Below are positions 2,122 through 61,579 of a stretch of DNA of 64,000 bases, piece after piece. The notes beneath the pieces are model-generated. The model did no database searches. It was not told the DNA's origin and was given only the letters and a program-made list of their open reading frames with translations. Source of the DNA: Pelagomonas calceolata (lineage: Eukaryota). The stretch is taken from the NCBI GenBank assembly GCA_918797485.1, contig CAKKNE010000002.1, positions 1,860,001-1,924,000 of the forward strand, given 5' to 3'. Made by a program: the position numbers and the translations under genes. Within the stretch, counting starts at the first letter, position 1, and each line of letters opens with the position of its first letter.

Positions 2122-2143
2122 CTAGTGTCTTTATGCCGCTAGC
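2122..2143 (+). promoter_or_regulatory. Recurrent upstream motif copy
   Basis: CTAGTGTCTTTATGCCGCTAGC between divergent gene starts (1919 and 2258). Confidence 0.6.
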
Positions 2144-2257
2144 AAGCACGGGGCTTGGCCAGTCAGTACGCCGTGAAGTGGCCGACAATCAAGCCGGTTG
2201 CGCGTTAAAAATCTCCAGTGCTCCTCAGTGCAGCGTCCGCCGAGCAAAAACGCACAG

Positions 2258-3115
2258 ATGATGCACGCCGCAGGAGTGTGTGTGCTGACAGCACTGCGTG
2301 CAGCGGCCCTCACGACGCCGCCGCCGCGCACCGCACCTCGGACGCGCCTCGCGGCAACCCCGCGCTACACCGCGGATTCTTTCCCGTCGGATTTGGCGGC
2401 GACGGACCGCGTGCAGCAGGCCTACGCAAGCGCGCCCGAGTCCGCGAGCTTGCTGCCGCCCGAGCTCGTGCAGTTCGGCACCGGCGCCCTCTTGGCCTAT
2501 GCCATCTACCTGGGCCCGGACTGGATCCTCGCACCACTCGGATGGGAGACGAATATACGACCGGGCCGGGCGGCGACGGACGTATTGGGCCAAGTCATCG
2601 CCCCGGACTCGGAGTTCGCCCGCGAGCGCCAGGCCGGCTTCGACGCGGCGGCGCCCGTGACGGTCCTCGGGGCCGCGGCGCTGCTGTTCCTCTGTTTAGG
2701 CTTCGGCGCCGAGGCGGCGCTGTGCGACGCGCTGGGGAGCTCGACGACGTTCGTCGGCGCGTGGGCGACGTGCGCATGCATCGCCGGCTCGGTCTACGAG
2801 GTCGGGCGGCCCGTAACGCTGAATAGGGAGGAGGCGATGGAGGAGGCGACGCTTGAGGAGGCGTTCGCCGACTTTGCCGAGCGGCGGTTCGAGCAGGCGC
2901 CCACGGCGGCGACGAACGTCATCGAGATCACGCGAGCCTTCCGGCGGTCCGCGCGCGGCAAGGCCTCGAAGTACCGCTCCGCCGAGGCGTCGGTCGCCGA
3001 CGTGCAGATCGAGAGGCTGGCGAAAAGATGGCTCCGCGAGCGCGGCGGCGTCGTCACGTCGAGCGGGTTCCTGAAGGGCGTGCGCCTCTCCGACGAGCCC
3101 GACGTGTTCCGGTAA
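2258..3115 (+). CDS. Putative plastid-targeted membrane protein of unknown function
   Basis: ATG at 2258. Signal peptide (MMHAAGVCVLTALRAAAL) then an R/P/T-rich transit-like stretch and about 3 hydrophobic helices. Confidence 0.7.
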   Translation: MMHAAGVCVLTALRAAALTTPPPRTAPRTRLAATPRYTADSFPSDLAATDRVQQAYASAPESASLLPPELVQFGTGALLAYAIYLGPDWILAPLGWETNIRPGRAATDVLGQVIAPDSEFARERQAGFDAAAPVTVLGAAALLFLCLGFGAEAALCDALGSSTTFVGAWATCACIAGSVYEVGRPVTLNREEAMEEATLEEAFADFAERRFEQAPTAATNVIEITRAFRRSARGKASKYRSAEASVADVQIERLAKRWLRERGGVVTSSGFLKGVRLSDEPDVFR

Positions 3116-3201
3116 CTTGTGCTGTTTTTTTATCACGCGGTATTGTTACGGTGCTGGGACTGTGGGCGGGCCCTGGGCGGGGAGACACCGCTGTTTTTTA
3201 A

Positions 3202-3227
3202 TTGCTAGTGTCTTTACATCCGCTATC
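3202..3227 (+). promoter_or_regulatory. Recurrent upstream motif copy
   Basis: TTGCTAGTGTCTTTACATCCGCTATC, about 170 nt upstream of the DOHH ATG. Confidence 0.6.
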
Positions 3228-3393
3228 GCCTAGTTTTATTAACCGGCAAAACGCAGCTGCAACGGAGCTAATCGCTCGCCAACTGGCGCCTGCTGCACAT
3301 CAGAAGCACGTCTTACAACGCACAGCTCGAGCTGCAAAGCTTGGACGCGCAGCTCTTGAGTGGTGCTCTCTCAAGCAGTGAGCTCTCCAAAAA

Positions 3394-4470
3394 ATGGCCA
3401 CATTCCAGCAACCACCCACAGAAGTATTAATCTGCAGCTTGGTGCCCGCTGCTGAACTGGAGGACGTCGGCATACAAACCAAATGCGCGTTCGCAACTCA
3501 AACACCGGGCGACCTGCCCGTCGCGCAGCGCATGCGCGCGGCCTACTGGCTCAAACACGCCTACGACAACGGTGACGACGAGGCGGAGAAACGGTCGGCA
3601 CGACGAGCGTTGGAACGAGCCGCCGCGCACGCGCCGCACGGATCGTTGCTCAGGCACGAGTGCGCGTACGTCTTGGGCCAGCTCAGGGACGCGCAGGCCG
3701 CCCCTGCGCTCCAGACGATCCTCTGCGACACGGCCGAGGACGCGATGCTGCGGCACGAGTGCGCCGAGGCGCTGGGCGCGATCGGCGAGGGCGACGCGGT
3801 GCTCGAGCGCTTGTCCAGGGACGCGAGCGAACCGTTCGAGGTGCGCCAGACCTGCGAGATCGCGCGCGACTTCTTGAAATGGAGACGAGCGGGTTCTGAA
3901 GGCGCGGCGCCCATCGCTTGTGCTTGTATGTTATCACCATTTAACTCACACGATCCCGCGCCGCCGGACCCAGCTCATGTCAATTGGAGTTGTGATCAAT
4001 TAGAAGATAAACTGCGGGATGCGTCCGCGGACATGTTCGAGCGGTATCGGTGCATGTTCTCGCTGCGGAATAGAGGTGGGGAGGACTGCGTGCGGGCGTT
4101 AGGAAGGACCCTATCTTGCGATCAGTCGTCTCCCTTGTTACGCCACGAGGTCGCGTTCGTCCTCGGGCAGCTTCAGCACCCGGCATCTCTCGAATACCTG
4201 GAGGCTTCGTTACGACGAAAAGGCGAGCACGCCATTGTGAGACACGAGGCCGCCGAAGCGGCAGGCGCGTTGGAGGGCTGCTGGGAGGCGTGCGAGAAAC
4301 TACTAGGAGAGTTTCGGAACGACGCCGACGTCGTCGTGGCGCAGTCCTGCGAGGTGGCGTTGGACGCGGCGGACTATTTTGGGCGGGCGTCGTTCGCGCA
4401 GGAGAAGGCCGGGCACTTCAACCTCGCCGGCGCGCTCGGCGACCTCGCCGTCGCCACGTCTGGGGACTAA
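3394..4470 (+). CDS. DOHH: Deoxyhypusine hydroxylase (HEAT-repeat di-iron monooxygenase)
   Basis: Four His-Glu motifs (RHECAYVLGQ, RHECAEALGAIG, RHEVAFVLGQ, RHEAAEAAGAL), plus DPAPP linker and RYRCMFSLRN. Confidence 0.93.
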   Translation: MATFQQPPTEVLICSLVPAAELEDVGIQTKCAFATQTPGDLPVAQRMRAAYWLKHAYDNGDDEAEKRSARRALERAAAHAPHGSLLRHECAYVLGQLRDAQAAPALQTILCDTAEDAMLRHECAEALGAIGEGDAVLERLSRDASEPFEVRQTCEIARDFLKWRRAGSEGAAPIACACMLSPFNSHDPAPPDPAHVNWSCDQLEDKLRDASADMFERYRCMFSLRNRGGEDCVRALGRTLSCDQSSPLLRHEVAFVLGQLQHPASLEYLEASLRRKGEHAIVRHEAAEAAGALEGCWEACEKLLGEFRNDADVVVAQSCEVALDAADYFGRASFAQEKAGHFNLAGALGDLAVATSGD

Positions 4471-4564
4471 TGTGTATTGTGTCATAGACGCCGTCGCCGC
4501 GCCCCACTCTACAAACTACGAGAACATGAACCTAGACTTGCGGGGGGAGAGGGGGATCGTACAT

Positions 4565-5557
4565 CTACTCATATTCGGGCGGCACCTTGCCGCCGCCGTC
4601 CTTGATCGCCTTGACGAGCGTCGCTTTTGCCTTGGCGCCGTACGCTCTGATTTCCGGGATCGGGACGTCCTCCTCGACCTTCTTGAGTTCCGGCAGCAGC
4701 TTGTCGACGAAGGGCTCGACGTCCTTCGCGTCGCAGACGAGCTTGCACATGTTGTCGACGACGACGCAGCACTTTCGCTTCGTCTGGACGTCGCGGTCGC
4801 GGAGACCCCTTCCAAGTACGGGCACAATAATAGCTAACGTCGGCCTGTCCACTTGCGACACGAAGGTCGTGCCCATCAACCGATCCAGAGCCGACACGTT
4901 CTCCTTGGGGTTCGCGTTCGCGCTAATCAACACGGGCACGATGGGCTGGACGTCGGGGTTGTGGATGACCGTGCAGCACTCGCCGAGGCAGGCCTTGGCG
5001 GCCTGCTTGACCTCGGGCTTCGTGTCCCACATGTTCTCGGTGACCTTGGGGACGACCTCGGGGAGGAGCTGGCCGATCTGGGTCGGCGCCGTGTGGGCCA
5101 AGGTACCTAACAGTTTCAGGCAGCCGACCTTGGTCTTCCAGGAGATCGTGCCCATGCCGGCGAAGAGGAAGGGGAGTAAGGTAGCGGCGGCGTAGGGGTT
5201 GACGGCCTGGACGAAGGCCGAGAGGCAGGCGTCGACGGCGTTCGCGACGGTCTTGACCTTGTCGTCGAATCTCTCAATGAGCGCGGGGAGGACGAGGAGC
5301 ATGTAGGGCTCGAAGTGGAGGCCGAGTTTCGTGTGGAGCGCGTGGCAGACGAGCACGGCGCCCTCGCGCGCGGCGACGTTCTTCGCTTCTCCTAAGGACG
5401 CCATGACCTTGGCGGGCAAAGCCATGGACATGATGCTCGCGACGCCCGCGGCCTCGACTCCAGAAGCGAGCTCGGCGGCGGCGGCGGAGCGCGCGTCCGA
5501 CGTCTCCTCGGACGTGGCCTTCGTGTAGAGCGCGGTGAGCGCTTCGAAGGCCGCCAT
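4565..5557 (-). CDS. HEAT-repeat protein resembling the isolated N-terminal domain of eEF3 (no ABC domains)
   Basis: WKTKVGCL, LPEVVPKVTENMWDTKPEVK, NPDVQPIVPVLI, TTFVSQVDRPTLAIIVPVLGRGL and KRKCCVVVDNMCKLV match eEF3/GCN1-type HEAT repeats. Stops after 330 aa. Confidence 0.8.
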   Translation of the reverse strand: MAAFEALTALYTKATSEETSDARSAAAAELASGVEAAGVASIMSMALPAKVMASLGEAKNVAAREGAVLVCHALHTKLGLHFEPYMLLVLPALIERFDDKVKTVANAVDACLSAFVQAVNPYAAATLLPFLFAGMGTISWKTKVGCLKLLGTLAHTAPTQIGQLLPEVVPKVTENMWDTKPEVKQAAKACLGECCTVIHNPDVQPIVPVLISANANPKENVSALDRLMGTTFVSQVDRPTLAIIVPVLGRGLRDRDVQTKRKCCVVVDNMCKLVCDAKDVEPFVDKLLPELKKVEEDVPIPEIRAYGAKAKATLVKAIKDGGGKVPPEYE

Positions 5558-6577
5558 TGTTTCGATGCCTGTGGGGGTTCGCGGTGATGCGGGCGACGTG
5601 TGGCGCGCGGCGATCGGATGCGGCGGTTTCGTGGGCGCGCGCGGCTGACCGGTTGCTGTGCACGTGTGTTACGAGTCGCGGTTGCTAGCCGCGCGCCGCG
5701 CGTGCGACGAACACAAATATTGGCGGGCGATGAAACTGCGCTGCAGCAAAAATGGATGCGCGAGCGCGCGCCGCTGCAACTGAGTTTTGTCGGCATTTAA
5801 GTACGCGTCTTGAGACCTGTTCGCGTGTGCTTAGACGCTGTTGCATTACGTTTGGCGTAGCGCGGCAGTCCGGCAAAAAGTCTATAGCCAAAATGAGTGC
5901 TGACACACGCGAGGCCCCAACGTATGTACTACAAATTGCCGATAAAGGTCCTCAAGAGACGACTGGACGCGTCCTGTGACCGATCCAGGCGGCCTTCGTG
6001 CAGATTGGCGACAGCTTGGTCGCAACGCGGCCCGCGGCGTCGTCGCGTGCCGAACTCACGGAGCGACTCCCGTCCAAGCGAAGCACCTTGCAACGGAGGG
6101 GGCGACCCGTAACCCAAGCGCCACGGGCACCGTCGCATCGTCCTCCTTGAAGTCGCGGCGTCGGGTCGTGTCGAGCCGCGCCGCGTCAAGTTGCGCGTTT
6201 CCACTCGTCCGATTTTTGCCATCGGCCACGCGCACCGCGTGGAGTCGCTCGTACGGGTCTCGCCGGGAGGCTGCCAACTGCCCGTCACATTTACGAGAGG
6301 CAGTGCATTAAGCGAAGAGGCTGTGCATCGAGGTCAAGTTGCAACCAGGGCCTCCGCAGTCACGCCGCAGAGGTATATTTCAGAGTTATCACCGCTGCGC
6401 AACGCGCGCGTGCAACGCCGCGCGACAAAAAGATTACGAGCGCTGCAACATCGCAGGCACAAGTGCAAAGCGGCGCGTCGGACCGCAGCGGTGCCGCGCG
6501 TGCGCCCGGCAATTGCTATACTGCTGCTCGTCGCCGCATTGATCCAAGTCAGCGCGGCGCGCGGCCTACGACCAAAA

Positions 6578-9500
6578 ATGTTCATCGCGAGAGCGGCGCG
6601 GCCCGCGCTGCAGCGGCCGGCGCGCCGCTGGCTCCGGGCGGCGGCCGCCGCGCGAAGCCGGAAAGGGCTCTTACAAAGGGGCGGCAGGAAGGCCGCGCTG
6701 GCGACGAGCGCCGACGTGCCGCCGGACCCCTCGACCTACGCGCGCGTCGCGCTGATCCTCGAGGACGGTTCCGTGTTTGAGGGCAAGTCCTTCGGCGCCG
6801 AGCCGCCGGCCGGGGGCACGTTTGCGGAGGTCGTCTTCCAGACCGGCATGGTCGGCTACGCCGAAGCGTTAACGGACCCGTCGTACCGCGGCCAGTCGCT
6901 CGCGATGACGTACCCCATGGTTGGGAATTATGGCGTGCCCAACAATAACGATAAAGATCCCCTCCAGCCGTTGTTGCCCCGTCGTAGCTTCGAGTCCGAT
7001 AGTATTCACGCGGCCGCGGTTATTTGCCAGGACTATTCCAATCACTTCTCGCACTGGGAGGCGACGCAGTCTCTCGGAAGATGGTTACATGATCAAAACG
7101 TGCCTGGGGTCTGTGGTATTGATACGAGAAGATTGACGAAGGTCCTGCGGGAGCGCGGCTCGATGCTCGGGCGGTTGGTGAAACTCGGTCCCGATGATGC
7201 CTTACCGACTTCCCATGGTACGGACGCCGAAGCGACTGCGTTGCGCGCTAGACATTTAGTCGACGAGGTGTCCATCACGGAGCCTATCACGTACAAGGCG
7301 CCGAACGAACGATTGTCGGTCGTAGCCGTCGACTGCGGCATGAAGGCCAACATGGTGCGCGAATTTAATGCCCGAGGCGTCACGGTGACGGCCGTGCCCT
7401 GGGACTATGATTTCTTGGACTTGCTGGACAAGTCCGACGGGTTATTTGTGTCGAATGGTCCCGGCGACCCGACGCAGTGCCAAGTGACCATCGACAACTT
7501 GAGGACGGCCCTGAACCGAGAAGGCGACGCCTTGCGCCCGATGTTCGGCATCTGCCTGGGGAACCAGTTGACCTCGTTGGCGTGCGGCGCGTCGACCGTG
7601 AAGATGCCGTTCGGGAATCGCGGCCAGAACCAGCCCGTCCTCGACGCCCTGCAGCCGGGCGCCTGCATGGTCACGTCGCAGAACCACGGCTACGCCGTCG
7701 ATCCCACGAACCTCCCGGACGGCTGGCAAGCTTTGTATACGAACGCCAACGACTTGACGAACGAAGGCCTGGTTCACACGTCAAAGCCCTTCTTCACGGC
7801 GCAGTTCCACCCGGAAGCCCACGGCGGCCCGACGGACGCCGCTTATCTCTTTGATGTCTTCGCCGATGCGTGTTCACGGTACAAAGCGGCGAGAGCGACT
7901 GGTTCTACAGTAGATCAAGCATTAATATGGCCCAAGACCATTAACGACTACACGCCGCCGGCCTACCCGAAGAAAGTCCTGTTACTTGGGTCAGGTGGCT
8001 TGTCCATCGGCCAAGCGGGCGAGTTTGATTACTCTGGTGCGCAGGCCATCAAAGCACTTAAAGAGGAAGGCGTCGAGGTCGTGCTGATGAACCCGAACAT
8101 CGCGTCGGTCCAGACGAACGTCGATCCGTCGCAGTCCCAGGAGGAGCGCTTGGCCGACAAGGGCGCCGCGGATCGGGTCTTCTTTTTACCCGTCACGCCG
8201 GACTACGTCGAAGCCGTCCTCGAGAAGGAGAAGCCCGACGCTATTTTAATAAGTATGGGCGGCCAGACTGCCTTAAATTGCGGTATCGAATTGGACGAGT
8301 CCGGCGTGCTCGCCAAGCACAACTGCCGCGTGCTCGGGACGTCGATCGAGACCGTGATAGCCACGGAAGATCGCGAAATCTTCAAGAACAAATGTTTAGA
8401 AATAGGGGAGCCCTGCGCCAATAGTATCGCGACGAACACCGTCGAGGAGGCCTTGGCCGCGGGCGAGAAAGTGGGCTACCCTCTGATGGCGCGCGCGGCC
8501 TTCGCTCTCGGCGGTCTAGGAAGCGGCATCTGCCAGGACGCGGACGAGTTAAGGACGCTCGCGACGAAGGCTTTAGCTGTTTCTCCCCAATTGCTCATCG
8601 AGAAGTCGATGCTCGGCTGGAAGGAGGTCGAATACGAGGTGCGGCGCGCGGCGTCCCTTTGACCTTCGACGCGACGCGTCTCCGTCTTCTGATGAAGGGG
8701 GTGGTCTCTTCTTCGATTTCGAGTACCGAGACACTGATATACAACACAGGTCGTCAGAGATCAACTCGACAACTGCATTACCGTGTGCAACATGGAGAAT
8801 TTTGATCCATTAGGCGTGCATACCGGCGATTCGATAGTCATAGCACCGTCGCAAACTTTGTCGAATGAGGAGTACCACATGCTTAGATCTGCCGCGTTAC
8901 GAGTCGTCCGACACTTGGGTATTGTCGGCGAGTGCAACATCCAGTACGCCTTGCATCCCGAATCGTTAGAATACTGCATTATTGAAGTCAACCCAAGACT
9001 CTCACGCTCTTCAGCCCTAGCTAGCAAAGCGACGGGCTACCCCCTAGCCTTCGTCGCGGCGAAACTGTCCATGGGCGTCACCCTGCCGGAACTCAGGAAC
9101 ACCGTGACCGGCGGCGCGACGATCATGGGCTTTGAACCTGCATTAGACTACTGCGTGACCAAGGTCCCGAGGTGGGACCTGGGGAAGTTCCAGGGGGCCA
9201 ACCGCGTGCTCGGTTCGGCCATGGCGTCCGTCGGCGAGGTCATGGCTATTGGCAGGACCTTCGAGGAGAGCTTCCAGAAAGCCTTGCGCATGGTCGACCC
9301 GTCGAATCCCGGCTTCGAGCCCATTGATGGGATGGAGTTACCCGACGACTCGCTCGAGAAGAAATTGGTTATTCCGACGGATCGACGCGTCTGGGGCATC
9401 GCCGAGGCGTTGTACAAGGGCCAGGGGTGGGATAAACACAGAGTCAGAGACCTGACCAAAATTGACGACTGGTTCCTCAGTCGCTTGGACAAGATCGCCG

Positions 9501-20650: not shown

Positions 20651-20888
20651 GTTTGCTTTTCTTCCGATGTGTTGGTGTGGAGGGCAGCCCGCTGGAGCGC
20701 ACACATTTCCGGGGCGCGGGCGAGCCGCTAACTTTTGGCGACGAATGAAATTGTGACCCTAGTATCTTTTTCCCCTCTAGGGTCGCAAAATGATTCGTCG
20801 CCAAAAATTAGCGGCGCGCTGACGCCCCGGAAATGTGTGCGCTCCAGCGGGCTGCCCTCCACTCCAACACATCGGAAAAAAAACAAAC
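20651..20888. promoter_or_regulatory. Palindromic bidirectional H2B/H2A promoter (inverted repeat, ~112-bp arms, 14-nt spacer)
   Basis: 20651-20762 is the near reverse complement of 20777-20888, e.g. GGAGGGCAGCCCGCTGGAGCGCACACATTTCCGGGGCG / CGCCCCGGAAATGTGTGCGCTCCAGCGGGCTGCCCTCC. Confidence 0.85.
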
Positions 20889-20897
20889 TCTTACATC

Positions 20898-23019: not shown

Positions 23020-23070
23020 TTAGTGCGCTTGTGTAAATGTATTATATTCACTCGCGTGGACTCGTTTGTA

Positions 23071-23095
23071 CTAGCGCATTGTGAGACACTAGCAA
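23071..23095 (-). promoter_or_regulatory. Recurrent upstream motif copy
   Basis: CTAGCGCATTGTGAGACACTAGCAA (motif in reverse orientation). Confidence 0.55.
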
Positions 23096-35650: not shown

Positions 35651-36998
35651 GGATTCCTAGTGTGTCGATACGCTAGATCACCAGGTCTTGCGGCTCCCCA
35701 AAATACACCAGCGATTGACGCCGCCATCTACCGTCCAATTGGTACATCATATCAACTCCAGCCCAGTTTTCATCCACAATCGACGGAACCGGAGCCGACG
35801 GCCCGCGCTCGGAGGGCGGGAGAAGAATTCTACTAGACAACTCTCGCGTTTATGTTCGTTTCCTTCCGTTTGTTAGTGGTAGAGTCCATCTAGGCCGATT
35901 GAACACGTACTTATCTATTTTAGATACTCCGTTAGAGCCGCGCGAAACTGCGATTCGGGAGCCCTACGTTTTTACAAAGACGGCCGCAAAACCTAGACCC
36001 GCGAGCATCAGCGACGACACCATCCAGGTGGACCATAACGCCGTTGTTCTATTCACAATCGACCGACTTGCCCGTTCTCCGCGGACGACGGTGCGTACGC
36101 GGGGCACTGAATTGGCCCCAGACCGGTGGTTTGTACAATAAATTTGCGTTTCAGGCGCTTCGGTTCCGGGACGGGGCAGATAATCGGCTTGATTGTATAC
36201 TACATTGCTCTGAGACCCAAAGATGCTCGGCGCGCCTCGTCGGACTCGCGACCACAGGATCTTGTGAAATCGGGGCACCAGACCCGGACCTGCGACCATC
36301 AGCCCGTGTACCATCACCATGGACCATAACGCGATCATTTGTTTCATGACCGACGGACTTGCGCGAGGTCCAGATCAAGATGTTCACGTCCCGAGCGTGG
36401 GCGGCCAAAAGTACCCTTCTCGTGGTGTAGATGTCATATATTTGTAATTGACTATCGGTGGGGTAGTATGGGGTCCGACAAGACCGCTACGGCGACTACT
36501 GGGGGCCCTCGGGTAATTGAAGTTTTTTGCGGGAACGGGACGCCATCGGGTCCAAATTGCAGACTTTTTTCGGGGGCAGAACGGTTCCTGGAGGTCTCTC
36601 GAGGTAGGTCTGTTAGTGGGTAGTCGCCTGCACCGCATACGCCGTCGATGCGGCAGCCTAGTGCTCTTCGAGAGCCCTGGAAGCAAGACCTGCCCTAAAG
36701 ATGCCTAAACGCAGTGGTCTGCTGAGAGAATTCGACCAAAAATGCTTGAAGCGCCGGCGCATGCGGTGTAGGCGCTTGCACGTGTATAGTACCGACCCTA
36801 GGCGACCCCAGGGAGACCTTTTGGGCAGGGATTGACAGGATTCAGCCGGCGCGGCCGCCATAGACCGTAGGGCGCCCTCGGCCGCGAATTAAAAATATTT
36901 AGTTTTTCGGCCCCCAGTACGTGTCCCATTGATCTCTTTGGACCATTAGCGAACCGAACGGTACTCAAACGGCTGCATGCCGCGATTCGTTTTTGCTG

Positions 36999-40768: not shown

Positions 40769-40792
40769 TTGCTAGTGTCTTACAACCGCTAG
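40769..40792 (+). promoter_or_regulatory. Recurrent upstream motif copy
   Basis: TTGCTAGTGTCTTACAACCGCTAG between the divergent arsS-like and BRCT genes. Confidence 0.65.
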
Positions 40793-41006
40793 GTCGTTCG
40801 GCTTGGGGCCGCGGTTCGCGCTGGCAGGCCGCGCGCCGCGTGCAACGCGGTAAAAAGCGCTGTCGCAGTGCACCAGGCAGTTCAGCACTGCAGCGCTGCG
40901 GCACAAGACGCGGTACCTGCCGTGCGCAGCTCGGGGACGGAGATAACTGTGCACTGCGGTTTTTGAGCTCACGGCAGACAGCGGCGACCGGACAAAAAAG
41001 CAAACG

Positions 41007-49601: not shown

Positions 49602-49627
49602 GCTAGCGGCCTGTAAGACACTAGCAA
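49602..49627 (-). promoter_or_regulatory. Recurrent upstream motif copy
   Basis: GCTAGCGGCCTGTAAGACACTAGCAA between the divergent CUB-RBR and fibrillin genes. Confidence 0.65.
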
Positions 49628-49832
49628 ACATCAACCAAAGCAGGCTGAGGCAAACCTCGCGCTGTCGTGCCACATACGTTGATTGCGTTACGCGTGGCGT
49701 AGTCGAGAGACATCGTACGGCTGCTGCCACGACGAATAACAGATCGCACGCGGCTCGTCCGCCAAGGCTCAGAGGCACAGAGAGGTTTAGGGCTCTCCGA
49801 GAGCAATCCCGTCAGCAGCACCGAGCACAACA

Positions 49833-50612
49833 ATGCCACACACCGCAGCGCTCGTCGTGAGCCTCGTTGCCAGCGCTAGTGCTCTCTCCGCGCCGACGTC
49901 GGCGCCCAAGGCAGCGCTCTACAACGCAATCGATAAATTCAACGCCGCCACGGCAATCGACGGAACCGTACCCATAGACTTTGGCGTGAAAGGCGGCGAG
50001 CTCGACAAGAAGTCTCGCGCCCCGCGAAATTTATTTCCGGACGGCTTCGACGCCGTGTCAGAAAACGTGGGCACAGCGGCCAAGGGCGTCATGGCGGCCG
50101 TCGACGCACTCGCCGGCGAGGCGTCGTTGGCCGCCAATGCTGCGGACACCTGGAAGACGGCGGACTCGCCCCTCACGGGCGAGTGGAGCAACCTCTGGAC
50201 TACCGCTGCTGATGCCACGTTCGATTCCAAGAGCGAACGCGGCGCCGCCAAGGTTTCCAATGTGGTGGACGCGAGGAAGGGCCGCATCACGAACGTCATT
50301 AAATTTACGGATCCCGAGAGCAAGGCTGATGCGCTGAGAGTGAGACTCACAGCCAAGGCCGTCGGGGCGCGGCGCCTCGAGCTCACGTTCCGCTGGGTGT
50401 GCGTGACCTTCAAGAAGCGGCTCTTCGGCCTCTTCAAGAGCGTATACGTCCCGCTCGTGCCGGCGACGTTCCTGGCACGCCTGATCTTTTTGTTCCGACC
50501 CAAAATCAAGCCCGCGACGCCGTTCTTCGATTTGCTTTATTTGGATGACGAGCTCCGCGTGCAGAAGACGGGCGAGGGGAATGTGTTCGTGCAGAAGAGA
50601 CTAGTGCAGTAA
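49833..50612 (+). CDS. Plastid lipid-associated protein/fibrillin family
   Basis: Bipartite targeting sequence (ASASA-LSAP), LTGEWSNLWTT and FDLLYLDDELRVQKTGEGNVFV. Confidence 0.85.
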   Translation: MPHTAALVVSLVASASALSAPTSAPKAALYNAIDKFNAATAIDGTVPIDFGVKGGELDKKSRAPRNLFPDGFDAVSENVGTAAKGVMAAVDALAGEASLAANAADTWKTADSPLTGEWSNLWTTAADATFDSKSERGAAKVSNVVDARKGRITNVIKFTDPESKADALRVRLTAKAVGARRLELTFRWVCVTFKKRLFGLFKSVYVPLVPATFLARLIFLFRPKIKPATPFFDLLYLDDELRVQKTGEGNVFVQKRLVQ

Positions 50613-50832
50613 GGAATTGTTGTTTCTAGTGTGTTACAGGACGTAAGCCAAGCGTGGGTTAGGCCCGCTGCCCTCAACGCCACAATATTGCACCATAAGT
50701 GTGCAATTGTTGGCGAGCAGTCATTTTGGGACGTCCTGCCTCGAAAAATAGTGACGGCGCAATCGCTGCGCATCGCTGCGCGTAGTTCCTTAACTCTTGG
50801 AAGTGGCTGATTACGCAAAAATCGCCGTAGCG

Positions 50833-52641: not shown

Positions 52642-52652
52642 AACAACTGTGT

Positions 52653-53573
52653 TTAGACCGGCGGCCGCGCGTACTGGACGCCGGGAACCACGCCCGTCGT
52701 CGCGTAGAAGTCGTATTCTACGGAGTAGCCGTTCGACGCGAGGTATTCCTGGCGGGCCAGCTGGTCGAGGGCGCACGGCCCGCACCAAAGCATACAACAG
52801 CAGTCGTCGCAACCCGCGCACCAACAACAGACGTCGAGCGACTCGAGGCCGTACGCGCATCTCGGCGACGGGATACCCCATTTGCGCCGAATGCGCCGTC
52901 GGAGCGACCACCCGATGCAGTAGAGGCCGAGGAGAAAAATTCCCGCGAGGACCGCGCCAACGGCAAGGGCCGAGGAGGCACATGCCCGGAGGAACGCCGA
53001 TAACACCAGCAACACGACGCTCGCGACGAAAAGCAGACCACAACACGTCGTGATGCAACGGTGTCTCCCGCGGTGCCCCTGCTTCTCCATGAGTTGGCCG
53101 CACATATGGCACGGACAGCAAAAGCTCGCGAGGCCGGTACCAAGGTAGTCACTGTGATTAAATGAGTCGCAAACGTCCGTCTGGAACTTTCGCTCGTGTT
53201 GGTCCGGCGCCATCGCCGTCGCGCCCATCCGTAATTCGTCCGCGGTCGTCCGCCCCGACGGCGGCTCGACTGTCACAACCACCGCCTCGGCCGGCGGCGC
53301 GGTGGGCGCCAGCGGCTGCTTATATGACATTATCTCTGAACTGAGACTCCGGTCTCTCGAGCTCGGTCGCACGTTGCGGCCACTGCGCGAGTTCACCTAA
53401 TTGTTTCGTAGATCAGAACCACGCGTCGTAGCGCTTGGTCATGCACGGCTCACCGGCAGGACTGCAGGACTTGTCTGACTCCTCCGGGAGATCACGACGC
53501 GGACGGCGGCGATGATAAAAATCGCGCTAAAGAAGATGAGACCGTAGAACCGGGCGAGGATGTCGGCGCTCAT
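52653..53573 (-). CDS. PLAC8 / plant-cadmium-resistance (PCR)-like Cys-rich membrane protein; probable exons 53573-53454 and 53396-52653
   Basis: FCCPC, LRRRIRRKWGI and DCCCMLWCGPCALDQLAR. A 57-nt GTGAG..TAG intron adds an in-frame hydrophobic first exon. An alternative ATG lies at 53330. Confidence 0.82.
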
Positions 53574-53921
53574 TTGGCCTGTGTGTGCGAAGGTGGGACA
53601 ACGAGGGAGCTCGTCATCCCACCTGGACCCACCATGCGCGCGTGCGTCGACGGCGAGCGAAGGCGGTCTCTCCTTTGGGCTCGCCGGGAGACGGTGAATG
53701 TGCCGGGTCCCGCTTGTGGGTTGCCTGGGCCAGGTGGCTCTTTGTTTGCTTGTATTAGTTGTAAGTTGTTCAGGGGGTTTACAACTAATTTTTGAAGGTT
53801 GGTAGTCAGAGCCAGTACCAACTCAACCGCGGCCGACACTTCAGCTCCCCCCGACTCTCTTTTACGCATTTTTTACGCCGGTCAACGCACCTGCCTCGTA
53901 ATTGGGCAAAAGACAAGCATG

Positions 53922-53948
53922 GCTAGCGGCCTTGTAAGACACTAGCAA
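53922..53948 (-). promoter_or_regulatory. Recurrent upstream motif copy
   Basis: GCTAGCGGCCTTGTAAGACACTAGCAA upstream of the PLAC8 gene. Confidence 0.65.
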
Positions 53949-54038
53949 GTATCGCTCGCAGAAGGTGCGTATATGTGACTACACGGCGGAACCCCGACAG
54001 AATAAATAAAACTTAGTAGTAAGGCAACGGGGAGCAAG

Positions 54039-55517
54039 TCAGTGGTTGTGCCCTGCGTGCGGGTCCTCGACCTCCTTGTCCCCGGAGCAGTGCGAGTGGT
54101 CGAGGAGCACGAGGCCGATCGCGACGGCTCCGATGATGAAGAGGACGGTGTTGAGGAGCTTGAGGCGCCACGTCGGGTTCTTGTGCACGAACGTCGCCGC
54201 GCACTCCGTCGCGGCGACGTAGACGTAGACGCCGCCGCTGAAGGCCAGCAGCATGCCGCGGTCGCCGTTGCCCGGCTCCAACCACAAAAACCACCAGGCC
54301 CCAATAACGACGGAGGCGCCACTCACCACATTCACGGCGAGCGCTTGTACCGTCGTGAGGCCGCCGCGCGTCACGAGCATGAAGAAGTCGCTCACTTCTT
54401 GGGCGAGCTCGTGGGCCACCGTCGACGACGCGACGGTCCAGCCCTTGGACTGCTGGCAGTCCAGAAACGCGTTGGCGATGAAGATGCCGTCCACAAAATT
54501 GTGCAGAAAGTCCGAAAGAAAAATCGCGAAGCAGAACGACGCGTCGACCTTCCTCGCGGGCCGTTCCGTGTTCACGGCGTCCGCCTTGATGATATCTGAA
54601 CTCTCGGGGCCGCCGCCGTCCTCGATCTGGCAGCACGGCTCCTCGCAGTCGTCCGCCACGTACAAATGCGACGGGTCCGCCGCCGCCGACACCATACCCA
54701 ACAAATAGCCCGCGAGCACACAAGTCCCGAAGCGCCAGTTCCCCTGCACCTCCGTCTGGTAGGAAACCGCCAACAAATGGCTCGCCTCGATCAGCAGAAG
54801 GTAGAAGGCCGTCGCCAATAAACAACCCACGGCGAAGGCCGCCACGCCCATCGTGAAGGGCTCGTTCTCCTCGAGCTTGCCCACGCCAAAGGCAAACCTC
54901 AATATCGCCCCGACGACCGTGCAGGCCAGGACCAAAAACGATGCGAGCGTCGCGTTGCGCCACGCGCGCGCGTCCTTTTTGTTTTGGTTCTTGTCGGACA
55001 ATGGTGCGGCGCACTCCGCGAGGCGCCGCCGGTGGTCGTGGCCCGCGTGGGGATCGACGCCTTCACCTAAAGTGCAGACGGGCTCCACATCAACACCGGC
55101 GGCGTCCTTGAGGTAGTGCGTCGAGACCTCGATCTCATCGAGCCCGTGCTCGAAGAAGAACGCGAAGAAGCCCGTCGCCTCTGCTAATCGCCGGCCGTGG
55201 TCGTGGCCCGCGTGCGGGTCCGTCGCCGCGGGCGTCGTTATTGTGGTCGCGCCGGCGACGAACAAGGCGCAGGCCGTGACCTCGAGATCATGCGGATTTG
55301 ACGCATTATTGTTGCACTTCGAGAGGCCGCTGGCTAATGTTTTTGCCTCGTCGAGAGCGTAATAATCCAGTGCGTCGAGGCCGACGCCGACGGCGAGCAC
55401 CTTGACGTCTATGGCTGTCGTGAAGATGTAGTTGGTCTCGGCATTGAGCTCGAAGACCGCTACACTCTCATACGCCGCCGCGCAGCCTACCAGGAGGGCT
55501 GCCCGCAGCGCGGCCAT
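54039..55517 (-). CDS. ZIP (SLC39, LIV-1-like) zinc transporter with His-rich N-terminal ectodomain
   Basis: Signal peptide, TM4 DFLHNFVDG and TM5 HELAQEVSDF. DPHAGHDH occurs twice and the C-terminus is DPHAGHNH. Confidence 0.92.
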   Translation of the reverse strand: MAALRAALLVGCAAAYESVAVFELNAETNYIFTTAIDVKVLAVGVGLDALDYYALDEAKTLASGLSKCNNNASNPHDLEVTACALFVAGATTITTPAATDPHAGHDHGRRLAEATGFFAFFFEHGLDEIEVSTHYLKDAAGVDVEPVCTLGEGVDPHAGHDHRRRLAECAAPLSDKNQNKKDARAWRNATLASFLVLACTVVGAILRFAFGVGKLEENEPFTMGVAAFAVGCLLATAFYLLLIEASHLLAVSYQTEVQGNWRFGTCVLAGYLLGMVSAAADPSHLYVADDCEEPCCQIEDGGGPESSDIIKADAVNTERPARKVDASFCFAIFLSDFLHNFVDGIFIANAFLDCQQSKGWTVASSTVAHELAQEVSDFFMLVTRGGLTTVQALAVNVVSGASVVIGAWWFLWLEPGNGDRGMLLAFSGGVYVYVAATECAATFVHKNPTWRLKLLNTVLFIIGAVAIGLVLLDHSHCSGDKEVEDPHAGHNH

Positions 55518-56853: not shown

Positions 56854-58272
56854 TTAGCATTCGGGTTCGAGTTCCTGTTCCAATTCGGGCGCCCAGCTCT
56901 GCGCCGGAGGCGGCCGCTCGGCGGCGAGGACGGCCTCGGCGGGTACCTCTTCCTCCTCGGCCGCGAAGGCCCCCGCGCCTTCGTACCCATACGGGACTTC
57001 CACTCGCACATCCGCTTTGGGTATGGGTACCAGGGGCGGCGGCGCATCGGCCTTTGAGTCCGCGGCGTGTTTGTGCCGGGCCTTGTACGCGGGGCAGCCC
57101 GCACACGCGAAGCAGCACAGCGCGACGCAGCACAAGATAAAGACGAGGGCGCCGCACGCGAGGCCGGCGACGAGGCTGACGTTTAGTTTGCAGCACGCGG
57201 ACGAAGACGAGGCACAGCAGGTGTCTTTTTGGCAGCCTATCTCTTCCATTCCCAAGACTGTCCAGTCTTTCCACCGCCCAGTCTCGAGCCAAAAAACACC
57301 GCAGTGACCGTCGTGGAGATCTTCGGCGGCGCAAGTGCCGCACCCCTGGATGTTCCTGAGTGTGTCGAGCGCCGCGACGGTGTGCGGGCAGTACCCGGGG
57401 CCCATGACGTCGGCGCTCCATTGGTAGAACCCTGGGATGCCCAGCTGAGTATTCTTCTCCGTGCAGCCGTCCTTGTCGACGAAGGAGACGCAGTCCCAAC
57501 CGGTCTGGTCCCCCTCCAGGGCTGGGTCGAGCTGGAGCGAGTACCGCGCGATGAAATCTTCCGGGCAGCAGCCGCCCGCCTGTACCTCCGCCAGGGTCGT
57601 GCCGCAGCCGTACTCGTTGTCGAATTTACTTCCGTAGACGCTGACGCAGCACTCGCCCTCGGCCGCCAAGTCCACGATGCCATCGCCGTCGTTATCCTTT
57701 GTGGCGTCGACGGCGCACTCGTTGTCGCCCGAGAGGCGGCGGCCGTGGTCGTGGCCCGAGTGGTCGACGTCACCGACGCACTCCAGCTCGATGTCGGCGC
57801 CGGGGAAGACGTCCCCGCACGCCGACGCGCCGCACTTGAGGAAGTGGACCGACGAGTCCTCCCACTCGTCGATGCCGTGCCCGGCGAAGATGGCGACGTA
57901 GACGTCGTCGCCCGAGAGGCGGCGGCGGTGGGCGTGCGCCCCGATGTGGAGCTCGTACGTCGACGTGGCGCCGGTGCCCATCGTGAGCTCCACGCATTTC
58001 TGGGTCGTGTCGATCTCGATTTCGGTGCCGTGCGCGGCCGTCGCTCCGTAACAGTACGTCTGCATGTAGGACTCGGCGCCGTCGACGATGGTGTCCAGCG
58101 CTGCCGCGTCGGGCGTCGCGCCGATTTCGGCGATGTAGAACCTCATGGTCTCGGTCAGCGTCCTTATCGTGAGGTCGTACTCCGACGAGTGCGCCAGCTT
58201 CACCACCCCGTACCACTCGTAGGCCGCGGCCGGCGCCGCGACCGCGAGGAGAAGGAGGCTGCGGAGTGCCAT
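56854..58272 (-). CDS. Type I membrane His-rich protein (472 aa): same ectodomain plus Cys-rich domain, TM and acidic tail
   Basis: The N-terminal ~180 aa are nearly identical to the 56006 gene. Cys-rich middle and TM LVAGLACGALVFILCCVALCCF. ATG at 58272. Confidence 0.82.
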   Translation of the reverse strand: MALRSLLLLAVAAPAAAYEWYGVVKLAHSSEYDLTIRTLTETMRFYIAEIGATPDAAALDTIVDGAESYMQTYCYGATAAHGTEIEIDTTQKCVELTMGTGATSTYELHIGAHAHRRRLSGDDVYVAIFAGHGIDEWEDSSVHFLKCGASACGDVFPGADIELECVGDVDHSGHDHGRRLSGDNECAVDATKDNDGDGIVDLAAEGECCVSVYGSKFDNEYGCGTTLAEVQAGGCCPEDFIARYSLQLDPALEGDQTGWDCVSFVDKDGCTEKNTQLGIPGFYQWSADVMGPGYCPHTVAALDTLRNIQGCGTCAAEDLHDGHCGVFWLETGRWKDWTVLGMEEIGCQKDTCCASSSSACCKLNVSLVAGLACGALVFILCCVALCCFACAGCPAYKARHKHAADSKADAPPPLVPIPKADVRVEVPYGYEGAGAFAAEEEEVPAEAVLAAERPPPAQSWAPELEQELEPEC

Positions 58273-58438
58273 ATTATGCACCAAGTGGGGCAGCCACAAG
58301 AGTGTGCCTCGCGCTGCGCCGGCGATTCCCAGCGGGCCAGCGCCAATTGATTCGATCCAATTAGCTGCCCCTGGCCCCAAACGCTGTCGGGTGGGCCAAG
58401 GGGGGCTAAGTTTGCCCCCCATGGCGGCGCCCGCGATT

Positions 58439-58463
58439 GCTAACGTCAGTAAGACACTAGCAA
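58439..58463 (-). promoter_or_regulatory. Recurrent upstream motif copy
   Basis: GCTAACGTCAGTAAGACACTAGCAA between divergent genes (58272 and 58688). Confidence 0.6.
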
Positions 58464-58687
58464 CCACGGCGGGCCGAGCTGCTGCTGAAACTGTTTGTGC
58501 GAGTGCTGTGACCGTACTTGTTAAAACGCGTCCTTGCAGCCCACCACCGCGCTACGGCAAGGCAACAGCAGCTAGTACTATATAGCCCTCCTCGCCACCT
58601 AGCACGCGCGCTGCCGCGGCGGAGCGGCGAGCGCGCAAAACAGACAGCCGCGGCGGAACGGCGGCGACGCGCAAAAAAAAAAAAAAG

Positions 58688-60037
58688 ATGGCCGCCTCCG
58701 TCGCCTCGGTCCTCGGCTTCGCCGAGGAGCCCGTGGCGGAAAGGAACCCCATCGCCGCGGCGTTCGGCTTCCCGGGCGCCTACTGGTGGGAGGCCGACTA
58801 TAACTTACAACAGCCGCACCGCTACGCGTCGTTTGACGCCGGGTCTGTCTCAGGAACGCCGGAGCGACGGCCCGACGCGCGGCGTTATAGCTCAACAGCA
58901 CCTGCCTGGTTTTCTGGCACTACTCCTCCCAAAAAAACTTTCACCGTGAAGCCGAAAACGCCTCCACTCACACACCTCGACTTTAGACCAAGGCGCCCTC
59001 TAGGCAAAGGCAAGTTCGGCGAGGTGTACCTGACGACGCACCAACCGTCTGGAAGATTATACGCCTTGAAAGTCTTACACAAGCGCTTATTGTACAACTC
59101 GAAGCTACGAGAACGGGCGAGGAACGAGAGACGCATCAACGGCGCGCTGGGGCCGCATCCCTTCATCATCCGGATGCAATACGCGTTCGCCACAGAACGA
59201 TGTCTTTGTTTAGTGTTGGATCTGGCGCCGTGCGGCGAGCTCTTCCAGTTAGTAAAAGTGGCCCACCCCTGGAAGAACGGCAAGACCAAGCCGGGCAAGT
59301 TCCCGGAACAGGCGGCTCGCTTCTACGTCGCCGAATGTTTATTAGCGCTCGAGTTTTTACATGAGCGACGTGTCTTATACCGTGATCTGAAGCCGGAGAA
59401 CGTCCTCATACAGCGCGACGGCCACGTCTGCATTTCTGATTTCGGTCTATCAAAACCAGGAGTGAACCATCCCCTGCGCGGCGCGCGGTCCATGTGCGGC
59501 ACGCCCGAGTACCTCGCGCCGGAGATTCTGAGAGGGTCCCACGAGCACGGGTTGGCTGTCGACTTCTGGTGTTTGGGGGCTTTATTCTACGAGTTACTCG
59601 ATGGCTATCCGCCTTGGTTCACCAAAGATAAGAAAAAGTTACTTGAAAGGGTCGCGCGGCGCGACTTGGAGCTGAAACTACCGCGAGGTCTGAAGCCGAA
59701 ATTATCAAAAGATGGGGAGCTGTGCTTAAGGGCATTGTTGCATCGGGACGCGACCGTCCGACTGGGAAGCGATGGCGACGCCCAGGCCGTCAAGGACCAC
59801 CCGTGCTTCGGCATGGTCGATTTTCAGGGTCTCGCGATGAGGCACGTCGACCCGCCCTTCCTGCCGACGCGTTTCGTGGCCGATTTGCGGAGTGACGAAG
59901 AAGTTTTATGGAGTGACGTCAAGGTCGATGCGGATCGGAAATTGCAGAGGATGGATATTAGTGATGACCGCTTCGACGAGATCTTCGCGAAGTTCGAGTA
60001 TCGGGGGGAGCGCGACGTGCTCCTCGAGGAGGCCTAA
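58688..60037 (+). CDS. AGC-family Ser/Thr protein kinase
   Basis: LGKGKFGEV, YALK, YRDLKPEN, DFG, CGTPEYLAPE and PPFLP. Confidence 0.93.
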   Translation: MAASVASVLGFAEEPVAERNPIAAAFGFPGAYWWEADYNLQQPHRYASFDAGSVSGTPERRPDARRYSSTAPAWFSGTTPPKKTFTVKPKTPPLTHLDFRPRRPLGKGKFGEVYLTTHQPSGRLYALKVLHKRLLYNSKLRERARNERRINGALGPHPFIIRMQYAFATERCLCLVLDLAPCGELFQLVKVAHPWKNGKTKPGKFPEQAARFYVAECLLALEFLHERRVLYRDLKPENVLIQRDGHVCISDFGLSKPGVNHPLRGARSMCGTPEYLAPEILRGSHEHGLAVDFWCLGALFYELLDGYPPWFTKDKKKLLERVARRDLELKLPRGLKPKLSKDGELCLRALLHRDATVRLGSDGDAQAVKDHPCFGMVDFQGLAMRHVDPPFLPTRFVADLRSDEEVLWSDVKVDADRKLQRMDISDDRFDEIFAKFEYRGERDVLLEEA

Positions 60038-61335
60038 TAAGTTCCAAACATATTACCGGACGCGTCGCAGGCTACCAATAGGCCTAGTGCGCGTCCGACA
60101 TATGCAAGGGCGATCCTTGAAAAGGGGTCGAGGGCTTTCCAGATTTCGTCGACGCGGCACGGCTCTTGCGAAACGGCGCCGAGCAACTGCGGCAGCACGG
60201 CCTGCAACTCTTCCCGCGCTTGTAATCCGCCGCGGTCGTCGCGCTCGACGTCGTCGCGGTCTTCGCCCGACCGTCTTCGTCTCACATAAACACCCCGGTC
60301 CGTGACACCCATGCCGTCGCGACCGGCCAGCGGCGCGTCCTGCGCGGCGCGGTGCGGCGCGAGGCGCTCCTTCCACGCGCCTATCACATCATTCGGCTCG
60401 ACGCCGACCACGCCGGCCAGCTTGTCGAGCTCCGCGACAGCCCGCTGCCAAGCTTTGGAACCATGCCCGTCGCACACGAGGGGCGGTGCCGCGCACCTTC
60501 TCCAGTACGTGTACTTCTCGAGGCGCGCGGCGATTTTCGCCGGCGTGCGGCCGAGCCAGCACTCCTCGGCCGCCGACGCGCACAGCTTCGCCCAGGTCCA
60601 GTCGTACGTCGCGACGGCGACGGTGGCGTGCAGCGACGGCTCCGCGCCGCAGGTCGCCGCGTGCACGAAGCCGCGGGGAACGTACAAGACGTCGCCCCGA
60701 TTTAATGTAGTTTCGACGGCCCGCGGCGCTTGAGATTCAAAGTCCGCGGGCAGCGCAAAGGCCTTGCCGGCTTGTTCGTCGTTGTTCGGGAACGAAACTG
60801 GCGGCACGGCGTACACAACCCAGGACTTCCGCCCTTCGAGCTGGACGACAAAAACATCTCGATCGTCGGCGTGCGCGTCGACGGCCTGGGCATGTGGTGG
60901 CGTGGCGTACAATTGAACATAGGCATGAGGCAGGTGCGTTCTCAGTGAAACCGAGAGCCGCCGGCACGCCTCGTCCACGCAATCCGCGCGGTTCACTATT
61001 AACGAGCATCCATCCAACCACGCGTGCGCCGCCGACGCGTAGTCGCGCGACGCGGCGCCGTCCCTCATGACGATGCCTTGGGCGGGTGGCGTTTAGGCTG
61101 CCGCAAAAATCGCGGACAGGTCGCGCCAGCGCGGCAGCGACGCTAGTATTGATGCGTCGCAGCTGCGTCTGTACAGTTCCGGCCGCTGCTCCCAGGACTC
61201 GCGGAAGAAGTACTTGGCGCTGCGGGGGCCGAGTAGCGCCTCGATGCCCAATCGTCGGCGGTTTTTCCGTTCTCTTGCGGCGGCGCGGCGCGCGCTGCGG
61301 CACCACTTTCGAGTTCTACGGCCAGCGATGGCCAT
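60034..61335 (-). CDS. JmjC/cupin-4 (ROX, NO66/MINA-like) 2-oxoglutarate oxygenase, with an in-frame TAA at 61095-61093
   Basis: FFRESWEQRP in the N-terminal part; HADDRDVFVVQLEGRKSW and GDVLYVPRGFVH in the rest. Both parts are in the same frame. Confidence 0.75.
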
Positions 61336-61554
61336 CGCTTGCTTTGGGGCTGTGCAGCCGCAAAAGCCAGCAATGCAGCCGCAAAAGCTTGCGCAGCGCA
61401 GCGCAGTATGTGCAGTGTGCTCACGTTGCTGTTCGCCGGCCCGAAAAGCAGCAGCACGCTGTCGCAGCGTAATGAGGTTTATAAATTAAAAGGTTTGATA
61501 GCCGAATAATGCAAAAGACAGCCAGCGCTGCACCAATTCAGCTGTAGCGCCGGC

Positions 61555-61579
61555 TTGCTAGTATCTTACTGCCGCTAGC
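61555..61579 (+). promoter_or_regulatory. Recurrent upstream motif copy
   Basis: TTGCTAGTATCTTACTGCCGCTAGC between the divergent JmjC and Rab genes. Confidence 0.65.

What the first reader, a model, noticed from the sequence alone, without database searches (positions are those of the whole stretch)
2122..61579. A ~25-bp motif TTGCTAGTGTCTTAC(N1-3)GCCGCTAGC marks many promoter regions
Seen: clear copies at 2122, 3202, 23071, 36999, 40769, 49602, 53922, 58439 and 61555, and weaker ones near 17337, 35657 and 50624. All are intergenic, in either orientation, one per region. They usually lie ~100-350 nt upstream of an ATG, often centred between divergent genes, and I noticed none in CDS. The two CTAG half-sites have near-fixed spacing. 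Inference: a genome-wide binding site for a general regulator (bidirectional promoter/nucleosome-free-region or origin element), or a domesticated micro-transposon end. I do not know of it being described.
Basis: seen in the sequence. Interest (0 to 1): 0.8.

Follow-up and report, generated by a model that had tools for sequence, protein, structure and literature searches.

The report
Two-way promoter anchor of Pelagomonas
A 26-letter, two-part DNA word sits between genes of the ocean alga Pelagomonas, with RNAs starting a few dozen letters away on either side, and it is likely the landing site of a general protein that opens promoters and sets where reading begins in both directions.

Summary
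The motif is real. Ten window copies score over 20 bits (shuffles: 0.025 per window). The host is Pelagomonas calceolata. The two CTAG halves are 17-18 bp apart even when sites are found by one half alone. Stranded RNA-seq puts 6 of 8 expected outward transcript starts 6-48 nt from the motif edge, once where the ATG is about 500 nt away; one start maps farther and one strong site is silent. Between two Pelagomonas lineages the motif keeps 23 of 26 bases while flanks keep 45%. There is no target-site duplication, hairpin or RNA family. New: 10 of 152 sites carry a further ~35-bp element, only on one side, and 9 of 9 with a known neighbour face a gene's 3' end. Best reading: binding site of an unknown general factor that anchors bidirectional promoters at about a third of genes. 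Binding, chromatin opening and the protein are inferred, not shown. Not found in print in seven searches.

The parts
2119..2143 (+). motif copy, CTAG spacing 17, divergent gap (ATGs 1919 - and 2258 +)
   Evidence: 28.7-33.3 bits
3140..3191 (+). piece of a short dispersed repeat lying just left of the motif's long half, on the side facing the upstream gene's 3' end; also in L055 (beside two motif copies), L018, L036
   Evidence: 89% over 54 bp to L055
3202..3227 (+). motif copy, spacing 18, tandem gap upstream of a HEAT-repeat gene (ATG 3394; cluster-mates named deoxyhypusine monooxygenase)
20756..20781 (+). weak motif-like CTAG pair (spacing 18, 9.4 bits) forming the loop and inner ends of a 112-bp inverted repeat that is the shared H2B/H2A promoter
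23070..23095 (-). motif copy, spacing 18, tandem gap upstream of the TBC-domain gene
35654..35677 (+). borderline copy, spacing 16, at the edge of a dispersed repeat (35685-36558)
   Evidence: 14-19.5 bits
36997..37022 (+). motif copy, spacing 18, upstream of the GT8 glycosyltransferase gene
40769..40793 (+). motif copy, spacing 17, divergent gap (ATGs 40424 - and 41007 +)
49602..49627 (-). motif copy, spacing 18, divergent gap; + RNA 5' pile-up at 49667; - RNA edge only roughly at 49435-49488
50623..50648 (+). motif copy, spacing 18, 11 nt past the stop codon of the fibrillin gene; + RNA 5' pile-ups at 50658, 50663, 50673
53922..53948 (-). motif copy, spacing 19, 50-75 nt past the ZIP transporter's poly(A) end; no outward transcript seen; incoming RNAs from both sides end before it
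58439..58463 (-). motif copy, spacing 17, divergent gap; + RNA from about 58482-58492, - RNA from about 58391-58395
61555..61579 (+). motif copy, spacing 17, divergent gap; + RNA 5' pile-ups 61585-61614; - RNA from about 61527-61537, 460 nt upstream of its ATG (61068)

Best explanation
This two-part 26-bp element lies in the short untranscribed gap next to transcript starts of Pelagomonas genes and is likely the binding site of one abundant, still unknown sequence-specific factor that would keep the gap open and position RNA polymerase II starts about 20-55 nt from its centre on either side. Shown: the word, its 17-18 bp half-site spacing, exclusion from coding DNA and convergent gaps, indifference to orientation, RNA starts flanking it, conservation in one pair of diverged orthologous promoters. 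Inferred: that a protein binds it as double-stranded DNA with two modules on a slightly flexible linker; that binding clears nucleosomes and fixes the starts as yeast general regulatory factors do; that about 3,000-5,000 copies serve roughly a third of genes; that where one side faces another gene's 3' end the bound factor, sometimes with an accessory element, acts as a boundary. Guess only: a Myb- or AP2-type multi-domain protein, the families with many members in the published annotation.
For: Ten copies in 64 kb against 0.025 by chance. 0 of 152 sites in predicted CDS, which is 67% of bases; 1 of 77 two-sided sites in a convergent gap, p=3e-5 by gap length. Outward genes on both sides equally (84 and 84), ATG medians 196 and 204 nt; tandem sites 22 vs 18 by orientation. 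Of 20 non-seed sites found by the long half alone (over 16 bits; 1.2 expected), 16 have the second half at spacing 17-18, 1 at 24, 3 lack it. 6 of 8 expected outward RNA starts lie 6-48 nt from the edge. L006/L020 orthologous promoter: motif 23 of 26, flank 220 of 486, CDS third positions 65%. CG profiles of the two independent flanks mirror each other (r=0.65, 1 of 300 jitters as high). Served genes are unrelated in function. A weak copy is the symmetry axis of the mirror-image histone promoter.
Against: No binding, footprint or mutation data exist. Site 53922-53948 (39-41 bits) has zero outward RNA in four runs, and the - strand start at 49602 maps 114-167 nt away on coarse bins. The four runs are one sample of ordinary poly(A) RNA-seq, not cap-selected, and no motif-free promoter was laid as control. 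About 25 of 40 window gene starts, including EF3, CPS and SAH hydrolase, lack a strong copy. One homologous promoter (L031 vs L091) has lost it by decay. No nucleosome-scale CG period was found. In L006/L020, 6 of 487 other windows are as conserved, and in L005/L107 70 of 246. At least one genomic copy is inside a poly(A) RNA (loose ends). Gene calls in the loci come from my own codon model.
Confidence: 0.7

Rival explanations
1. Mainly a boundary: a tightly bound protein that blocks incoming polymerase and insulates neighbours in a very compact genome; nearness to starts follows because gaps are small.
For: At 53922-53948 RNAs arriving from both sides end before the motif and none starts; at 50623 it sits 11 nt past a stop codon. 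Half of two-sided sites are tandem. Yeast general factors do roadblock Pol II (PMC5052057, abstract) and insulate divergent pairs (PMC4551913, abstract).
Against: A terminator-type boundary should favour convergent gaps, but 1 of 57 has it. At 61555 both starts hug the motif inside a 665-nt ATG-to-ATG gap.
Confidence: 0.12
2. Neutral relics of a small mobile element (end or internal repeat) that inserted into promoters.
For: 10 of 152 sites share a ~35-bp extension in fixed orientation, with indels and, in L062, L070 and L019, a second motif copy behind it. A second short repeat abuts 3 strong sites on the other side.
Against: No target-site duplication at any boundary tested in 149 sites (best excess 0.05 for 2-mers). 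Information falls to background at -6 and +6. Motif outlasts its flanks between lineages. Decay in place, not a clean empty site, in L031. One transposase row in 14,639 annotation rows held. A non-neutral version (spread by a repeat, then kept as binding sites) is compatible with the best explanation; I give that history about 0.25.
Confidence: 0.06
3. A sequence-specified replication origin element that lies in promoters.
For: Long, information-rich, intergenic, either orientation. GC-rich promoter-linked origins are known from some yeasts (recalled, no call).
Against: One per 6-10 kb is denser than sequence-defined origins I recall; the tight coupling to RNA starts is not required of origins.
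Confidence: 0.05
4. Site of a condition-specific transcription factor controlling one large regulon.
For: One strong site is silent in all four runs, and depth at 50833 and 49397 differs several-fold in run X24.
Against: Flanking genes share no pathway (Rab, kinase, JmjC, CUB, fibrillin, methyltransferase, radical SAM); 15 of about 40 starts carry it.
Confidence: 0.05
5. An RFX X-box, because CTAGCAA resembles an RFX half-site (recalled), or a small structured RNA or DNA hairpin.
For: The CTAGCAA word ends the long half on the reverse strand; the two CTAGs are self-complementary.
Against: The base that RFX needs before TTGC is G in 10% of sites; no RFX or PF02257 row in 14,639 of 16,667 annotation rows. 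Folding z-scores 0.2, -1.2, 0.2; no Rfam hit in the window or 20 loci; the motif is untranscribed at the sites laid.
Confidence: 0.02

Closest known systems
Yeast general regulatory factor sites (Reb1, Abf1, Rap1, Cbf1, Tbf1)
   Same: Abundant promoter word at unrelated genes, either orientation; these factors fix start sites and nucleosome positions (10.1101/331793, abstract), roadblock Pol II (PMC5052057, abstract), and turn over between lineages (PMC2897762, passages). Abf1 and Rap1 sites are bipartite (recalled).
   Different: No sequence likeness; 26 bp with a spacer that varies by 1-3 bp; starts lie as close as 6-48 nt on both sides; factor unknown; nucleosome depletion untested.
Animal bidirectional-promoter motifs (ZNF143/SBS, NRF1, GABP; Drosophila DRE and Motif 1) - recalled, no call
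   Same: Long or palindromic words near start sites of housekeeping and divergent genes.
   Different: ZNF143-type reading needs a C2H2 array; PF00096 has 0 rows in the 14,639 annotation rows held. No sequence match that I recall.
CTCF and REST sites spread by repeats - recalled, no call
   Same: Two-part sites with variable spacer; a minority embedded in a longer repeat, as 10 of 152 are here.
   Different: Here tied to transcript starts, absent from convergent gaps, no zinc-finger array candidate.
SNAPc proximal sequence element - recalled, no call
   Same: Long element a few dozen bases upstream of a start; a SNAP43 subunit is annotated in P. calceolata (Pca_5p15610).
   Different: One-directional and at snRNA genes in animals and plants; here two-directional at protein genes, with no snRNA hit in 20 loci and 2 tRNA calls in 120 loci.
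Pelagophyte introner elements (Guerin 2022, PMC9481584 section 6)
   Same: Same genome, repeat-derived, thousands of short copies.
   Different: About 210 bp and intronic; this word is 26 bp, intergenic, without terminal repeats or duplicated target.

Membership tests
General regulatory factor site (yeast type) | Frequent in promoters of unrelated genes, either orientation, absent from coding DNA | tested here: met
General regulatory factor site (yeast type) | Fixed relation to transcription starts | tested here: met
   6 of 8 expected starts within 6-48 nt; one farther, one silent; small n, not cap-selected
General regulatory factor site (yeast type) | Conserved above flanks in orthologous promoters | tested here: met
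   L006/L020 23 of 26 vs 220 of 486; L005/L107 too close to tell; L031 decayed
General regulatory factor site (yeast type) | Nucleosome depletion and phased flanking nucleosomes in vivo | tested here: inconclusive
   no CG period at 150-200 bp; mirrored CG dip at 153 and 164 nt from the centre; MNase/ATAC not available
General regulatory factor site (yeast type) | Bound by an abundant sequence-specific protein whose loss shifts starts | not testable with these tools
   needs pull-down, ChIP, depletion
MITE / DNA transposon end | Target-site duplication flanking copies | tested here: not met
   149 sites, k=2-9, 64 boundary pairs
MITE / DNA transposon end | Homology continuing inward from the terminus in most copies; paired inverted ends | tested here: not met
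   only 10 of 152 share an extension, 3 a repeat on the other side
MITE / DNA transposon end | Clean empty sites in relatives | tested here: inconclusive
   one homologous promoter without it shows decay in place; three pairs only
Helitron 3' end (hairpin, then CTRR before T; recalled) | Conserved hairpin 10-20 nt before CTAG, host sequence after it | tested here: not met
   conserved bases follow the CTAG rather than precede it; a hairpin repeat precedes only 2 strong sites, 1 weak site and the RNA loose-end copy
RFX X-box | GTTGC half-site, palindromic, RFX gene present | tested here: not met
   G at that place in 10%; 0 RFX rows of 14,639 held, 12% of rows unseen
Telomere-like promoter box | Matches the species' telomere repeat | tested here: not met
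   telomere is TTAGGG
Structured non-coding RNA or tRNA-derived SINE | Rfam or tRNA match, stable fold, transcribed | tested here: not met
Replication origin element | ORC binding, initiation of synthesis | not testable with these tools
   no replication data on hand

The most novel reading that the evidence does not exclude
The word is the core promoter itself: one lineage-specific factor sits where the pre-initiation complex assembles and fires both ways, and a partner element placed on one fixed side shuts that side when it faces another gene's 3' end, the pair having been seeded through the genome by a repeat. That would be a two-component, hard-wired switch between bidirectional and unidirectional promoters.
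Probability: 0.17. Interest if true: 0.85.

Novelty: new variant of a known kind. Interest (0 to 1): 0.63.

Why it matters
Pelagomonas is among the most abundant small algae of the open ocean, and its genome paper does not mention promoters or motifs. A single, easily scored word that marks transcript starts for about a third of genes would give start-site annotation for this genus and its metagenomes, a ready bait to catch the general factor of a photosynthetic stramenopile, and a minimal two-way promoter for transgenes. The one-sided accessory element makes promoter directionality testable in a lineage far from yeast and animals.

Tried and rejected
Whole genome: none held, so genome-wide counts are extrapolated. 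Viral contigs: 0 matches. Prokaryote genomes: 5 matches in 596 Gb, about what uniform chance gives (about 13), all in marine bins with 56-68% GC and look-alike context; a follow-up found 5 sites in 4 of 5 bins; read as Pelagomonas contamination, not tested further and left out of the 152. L107 was dropped as a near-duplicate of L005 before counting. Flank self-BLAST in the window: nothing in register, best E 0.002. CG periodicity as a nucleosome proxy: strongest power at the edge of the range, equal for ATG anchoring, no period in autocorrelation; inconclusive. WW mirror symmetry not significant (p=0.14). No initiator-like word at a fixed distance; only T-rich 4-mers 20-39 nt out. Hairpin/cruciform, Rfam, tRNA, telomere box, RFX, CACTA end (conserved bases continue outside the would-be terminus), Helitron end and 'CTAG as duplicated target' rejected. 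Site 17337 not supported. Earlier scan findings: none. Huff and Zilberman 2014 and Huff 2016 were not held, so linker methylation in pelagophytes is recalled only. Other pelagophyte genera could not be tested.
Full report
Observation. A two-block weight matrix (long half around CTAGTGTCTTAC, short half GCCGCTAGC, CTAG-to-CTAG 16-20 bp) scores them 32-41 bits, 24-40 when each is left out of training, and adds 50626 at 23 bits; 40 local dinucleotide shuffles give 0.025 hits over 20 bits per window. With a matrix trained only on metagenome sites the same ten score 21.5-40.7, 35657 scores 19.5, 20759 9.4 and 17337 under 7.

Organism. The window is a gene-dense, 63.7% GC eukaryote with histones, EF3, CPS and Rab. 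Six window proteins are in NCBI on a 6.14-Mb contig and the H2A cluster holds proteins named Pelagomonas calceolata. No whole genome was held.

More copies. Of 10 locus proteins looked up, 2 are identical to named P. calceolata proteins and 3 more cluster with them at 90%; the other 5 showed no species name among members read. Nearest named outsiders for two proteins were Pelagophyceae sp. CCMP2097 and Aureococcus at 59-72%. So the known range is the genus Pelagomonas, several lineages and several chromosomes; other genera are untested. After dropping L107, 152 sites score over 20 bits (142 metagenome, 10 window); 126 match the strict pattern, so their spacing is constrained by the search. The unbiased test: of 20 non-seed sites found by the long half alone (1.2 expected), 16 have the short half at 17-18 bp when 12-26 was allowed, 1 at 24, 3 have none. 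Information content drops to background 6 bases outside either CTAG. Density is 1 per 6.4 kb in the window and about 1 per 10 kb in the loci, or roughly 3,000-5,000 copies in 32.4 Mb (Poisson range 2,400-9,300 from the window; genome size from PMC9481584 section 6).

Position. With a codon model trained on window genes, 0 of 152 sites fall in coding DNA, which is 67% of bases. Gaps over 60 bp holding a site: 38 of 66 divergent, 38 of 82 tandem, 1 of 57 convergent (p=3e-5 by length); these loci were selected by the motif, but the unselected window agrees (5 of 12, 5 of 19, 0 of 11). Outward genes lie on the two sides equally (84 and 84), with ATG medians 196 and 204 nt. GC and CG dip symmetrically, and detrended CG profiles of the two flanks correlate (r=0.65, p=0.003). 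About 15 of 40 window gene starts have a strong site.

RNA. Four stranded poly(A) runs of one sample were laid on 48800-54800 and 58250-61850; strand was read from known genes. At 61555-61579, + 5' ends pile up at 61585-61614 and - RNA runs up to about 61527-61537, although its ATG is 460 nt farther on. At 58439-58463 RNA begins near 58482-58492 (+) and 58391-58395 (-). At 50623-50648 + ends are at 50658-50673; at 49602-49627 at 49667. Bin-based edges assume even depth. That is 6 of 8 expected starts within 6-48 nt. Against: the - start at 49602 maps 114-167 nt away on 201-bp bins at low depth, and 53922-53948 has no outward RNA, while RNAs arriving from both sides end before it. Loose ends show another genomic copy inside a poly(A) RNA. 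These are not capped ends and no motif-free promoter served as control.

Conservation. L006 and L020 carry the same divergent gene pair in two lineages (CDS 81%, third positions 65%); the motif keeps 23 of 26 bases, the rest of the gap 220 of 486, with 6 of 487 other windows as conserved. L005/L107 are too close to inform. In L031, homologous to L091, the site has decayed in place, so it is dispensable or replaceable at some promoters.

Mobile-element test. No target-site duplication at any boundary, no in-register flank homology in the window, no significant fold, no Rfam or tRNA match in the window or Rfam match in 20 of 120 loci. But two longer companions exist. First, a ~35-bp element (for example L006:748-788, - strand) follows the short half by 4-57 nt, always in the same orientation, at 10 of 152 sites; the eleventh hit over 12 bits (L003) also sits beside a variant motif, and reversed sequence scores at most 9.7. 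All 9 with a known neighbour on that side face a gene's 3' end, against 19 of 103 other sites (Fisher p=1.3e-6, found post hoc). It lies where the start on that side would be. Second, an ~85-bp hairpin-ended repeat lies left of the long half at window 3205 and twice in L055, 3 of 3 again facing a 3' end (p=0.006). Either these are partner elements that silence the unused side, or repeats that survive only where they break no start site, or remnants of an element that spread the motif. The data do not separate these.

Mechanism. Most likely (0.7) a general factor binds both halves on double-stranded DNA, keeps the gap open and sets starts on either side; where no gene lies outward it acts as a boundary. 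Binding and chromatin opening are inferred by analogy with yeast factors, which fix start sites (10.1101/331793, abstract), block Pol II (PMC5052057, abstract), insulate divergent pairs (PMC4551913, abstract) and change between lineages (PMC2897762, passages). A CG-period proxy for nucleosome phasing was inconclusive. In the published annotation, of which 14,639 of 16,667 rows are held, RFX and PF00096 have 0 rows, Myb 42 and 15, AP2 17, SNAP43 1, transposase 1; a Myb- or AP2-type binder is a guess from these counts.

Novelty. The genome paper's main text has 0 hits for motif, promoter or intergenic (PMC9481584, passages); four of its five supplements were searched without a promoter motif, file 4 is cut and file 5 unreadable. 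Searches (sequence strings; 30 of 209 listings seen, none algal by title; 20 of 39 seen) found no description; the one Pelagomonas chromatin preprint has 0 hits for motif (10.1101/2025.04.21.649811, passages). Subscription journals are mostly outside the library. It works like a general regulatory factor site; membership is met on position, start coupling and conservation and untested on binding and nucleosome depletion. I rate it a new variant of a known kind, interest 0.63.

Noticed in passing
window 20651-20888: The shared H2B/H2A promoter is a mirror image: 112-bp arms, 89% complementary, 14-nt loop; a weak motif-like CTAG pair is its axis.
   Followed up: partly
window 52619-53412: Abundant + strand RNA, apparently a ~770-nt 3' extension of the methyltransferase mRNA, covers the PLAC8 ORF (52653-53330, - strand) in antisense; PLAC8 sense RNA is 0-10 deep and its motif-bearing promoter is silent.
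   Followed up: partly
window 35685-36558: Non-coding dispersed repeat shared with L017 (86% over 786 bp) and L063 (90% over 174 bp); AT-rich run and a borderline motif at its edge; similar variant motifs lie near repeats in L017 and L018.
   Followed up: partly
window 3140-3191; L055:2090-2216 and 4941-5016; L018:3138-3212; L036:2082-2146: Short repeat ending in a hairpin, usually just left of a motif in the same orientation; also seen in RNA loose ends from another genomic copy.
   Followed up: partly
5' flanks throughout, e.g. window 25380-25395, 20690-20700: A second common word, GGGCAGC, is enriched about 100 nt out from the motif and near many ATGs without it (36 vs 10 expected).
   Followed up: no
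window 16858-17033 and 43526-43720: Two more dispersed repeat families shared with several loci (L003, L017, L021, L042, L064; L001, L004, L014, L041).
   Followed up: no
L062:711-775, L071:526-553, L030:3870-4330, L007: Motif duplications: tandem at 64 bp with the accessory element between, overlapping head-to-head, an inward-facing pair 460 bp apart with no predicted CDS, and a copy with a 24-bp spacing.
   Followed up: partly
PMC9481584 supplementary file 4: Neither TBP (PF00352, IPR000814) nor TFIIB proper appears in the 14,639 of 16,667 rows held, though Brf1 and several TAFs do; they may lie in the unseen 12% or be too divergent.
   Followed up: no
window 54195-54228: A 32-nt skip with GC..TA ends in ZIP transporter reads of three runs, not a standard intron.
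   Followed up: no
L121-L130: Pelagomonas-like contigs carrying the motif sit in five prokaryote species bins; the word could flag such contamination.
   Followed up: partly
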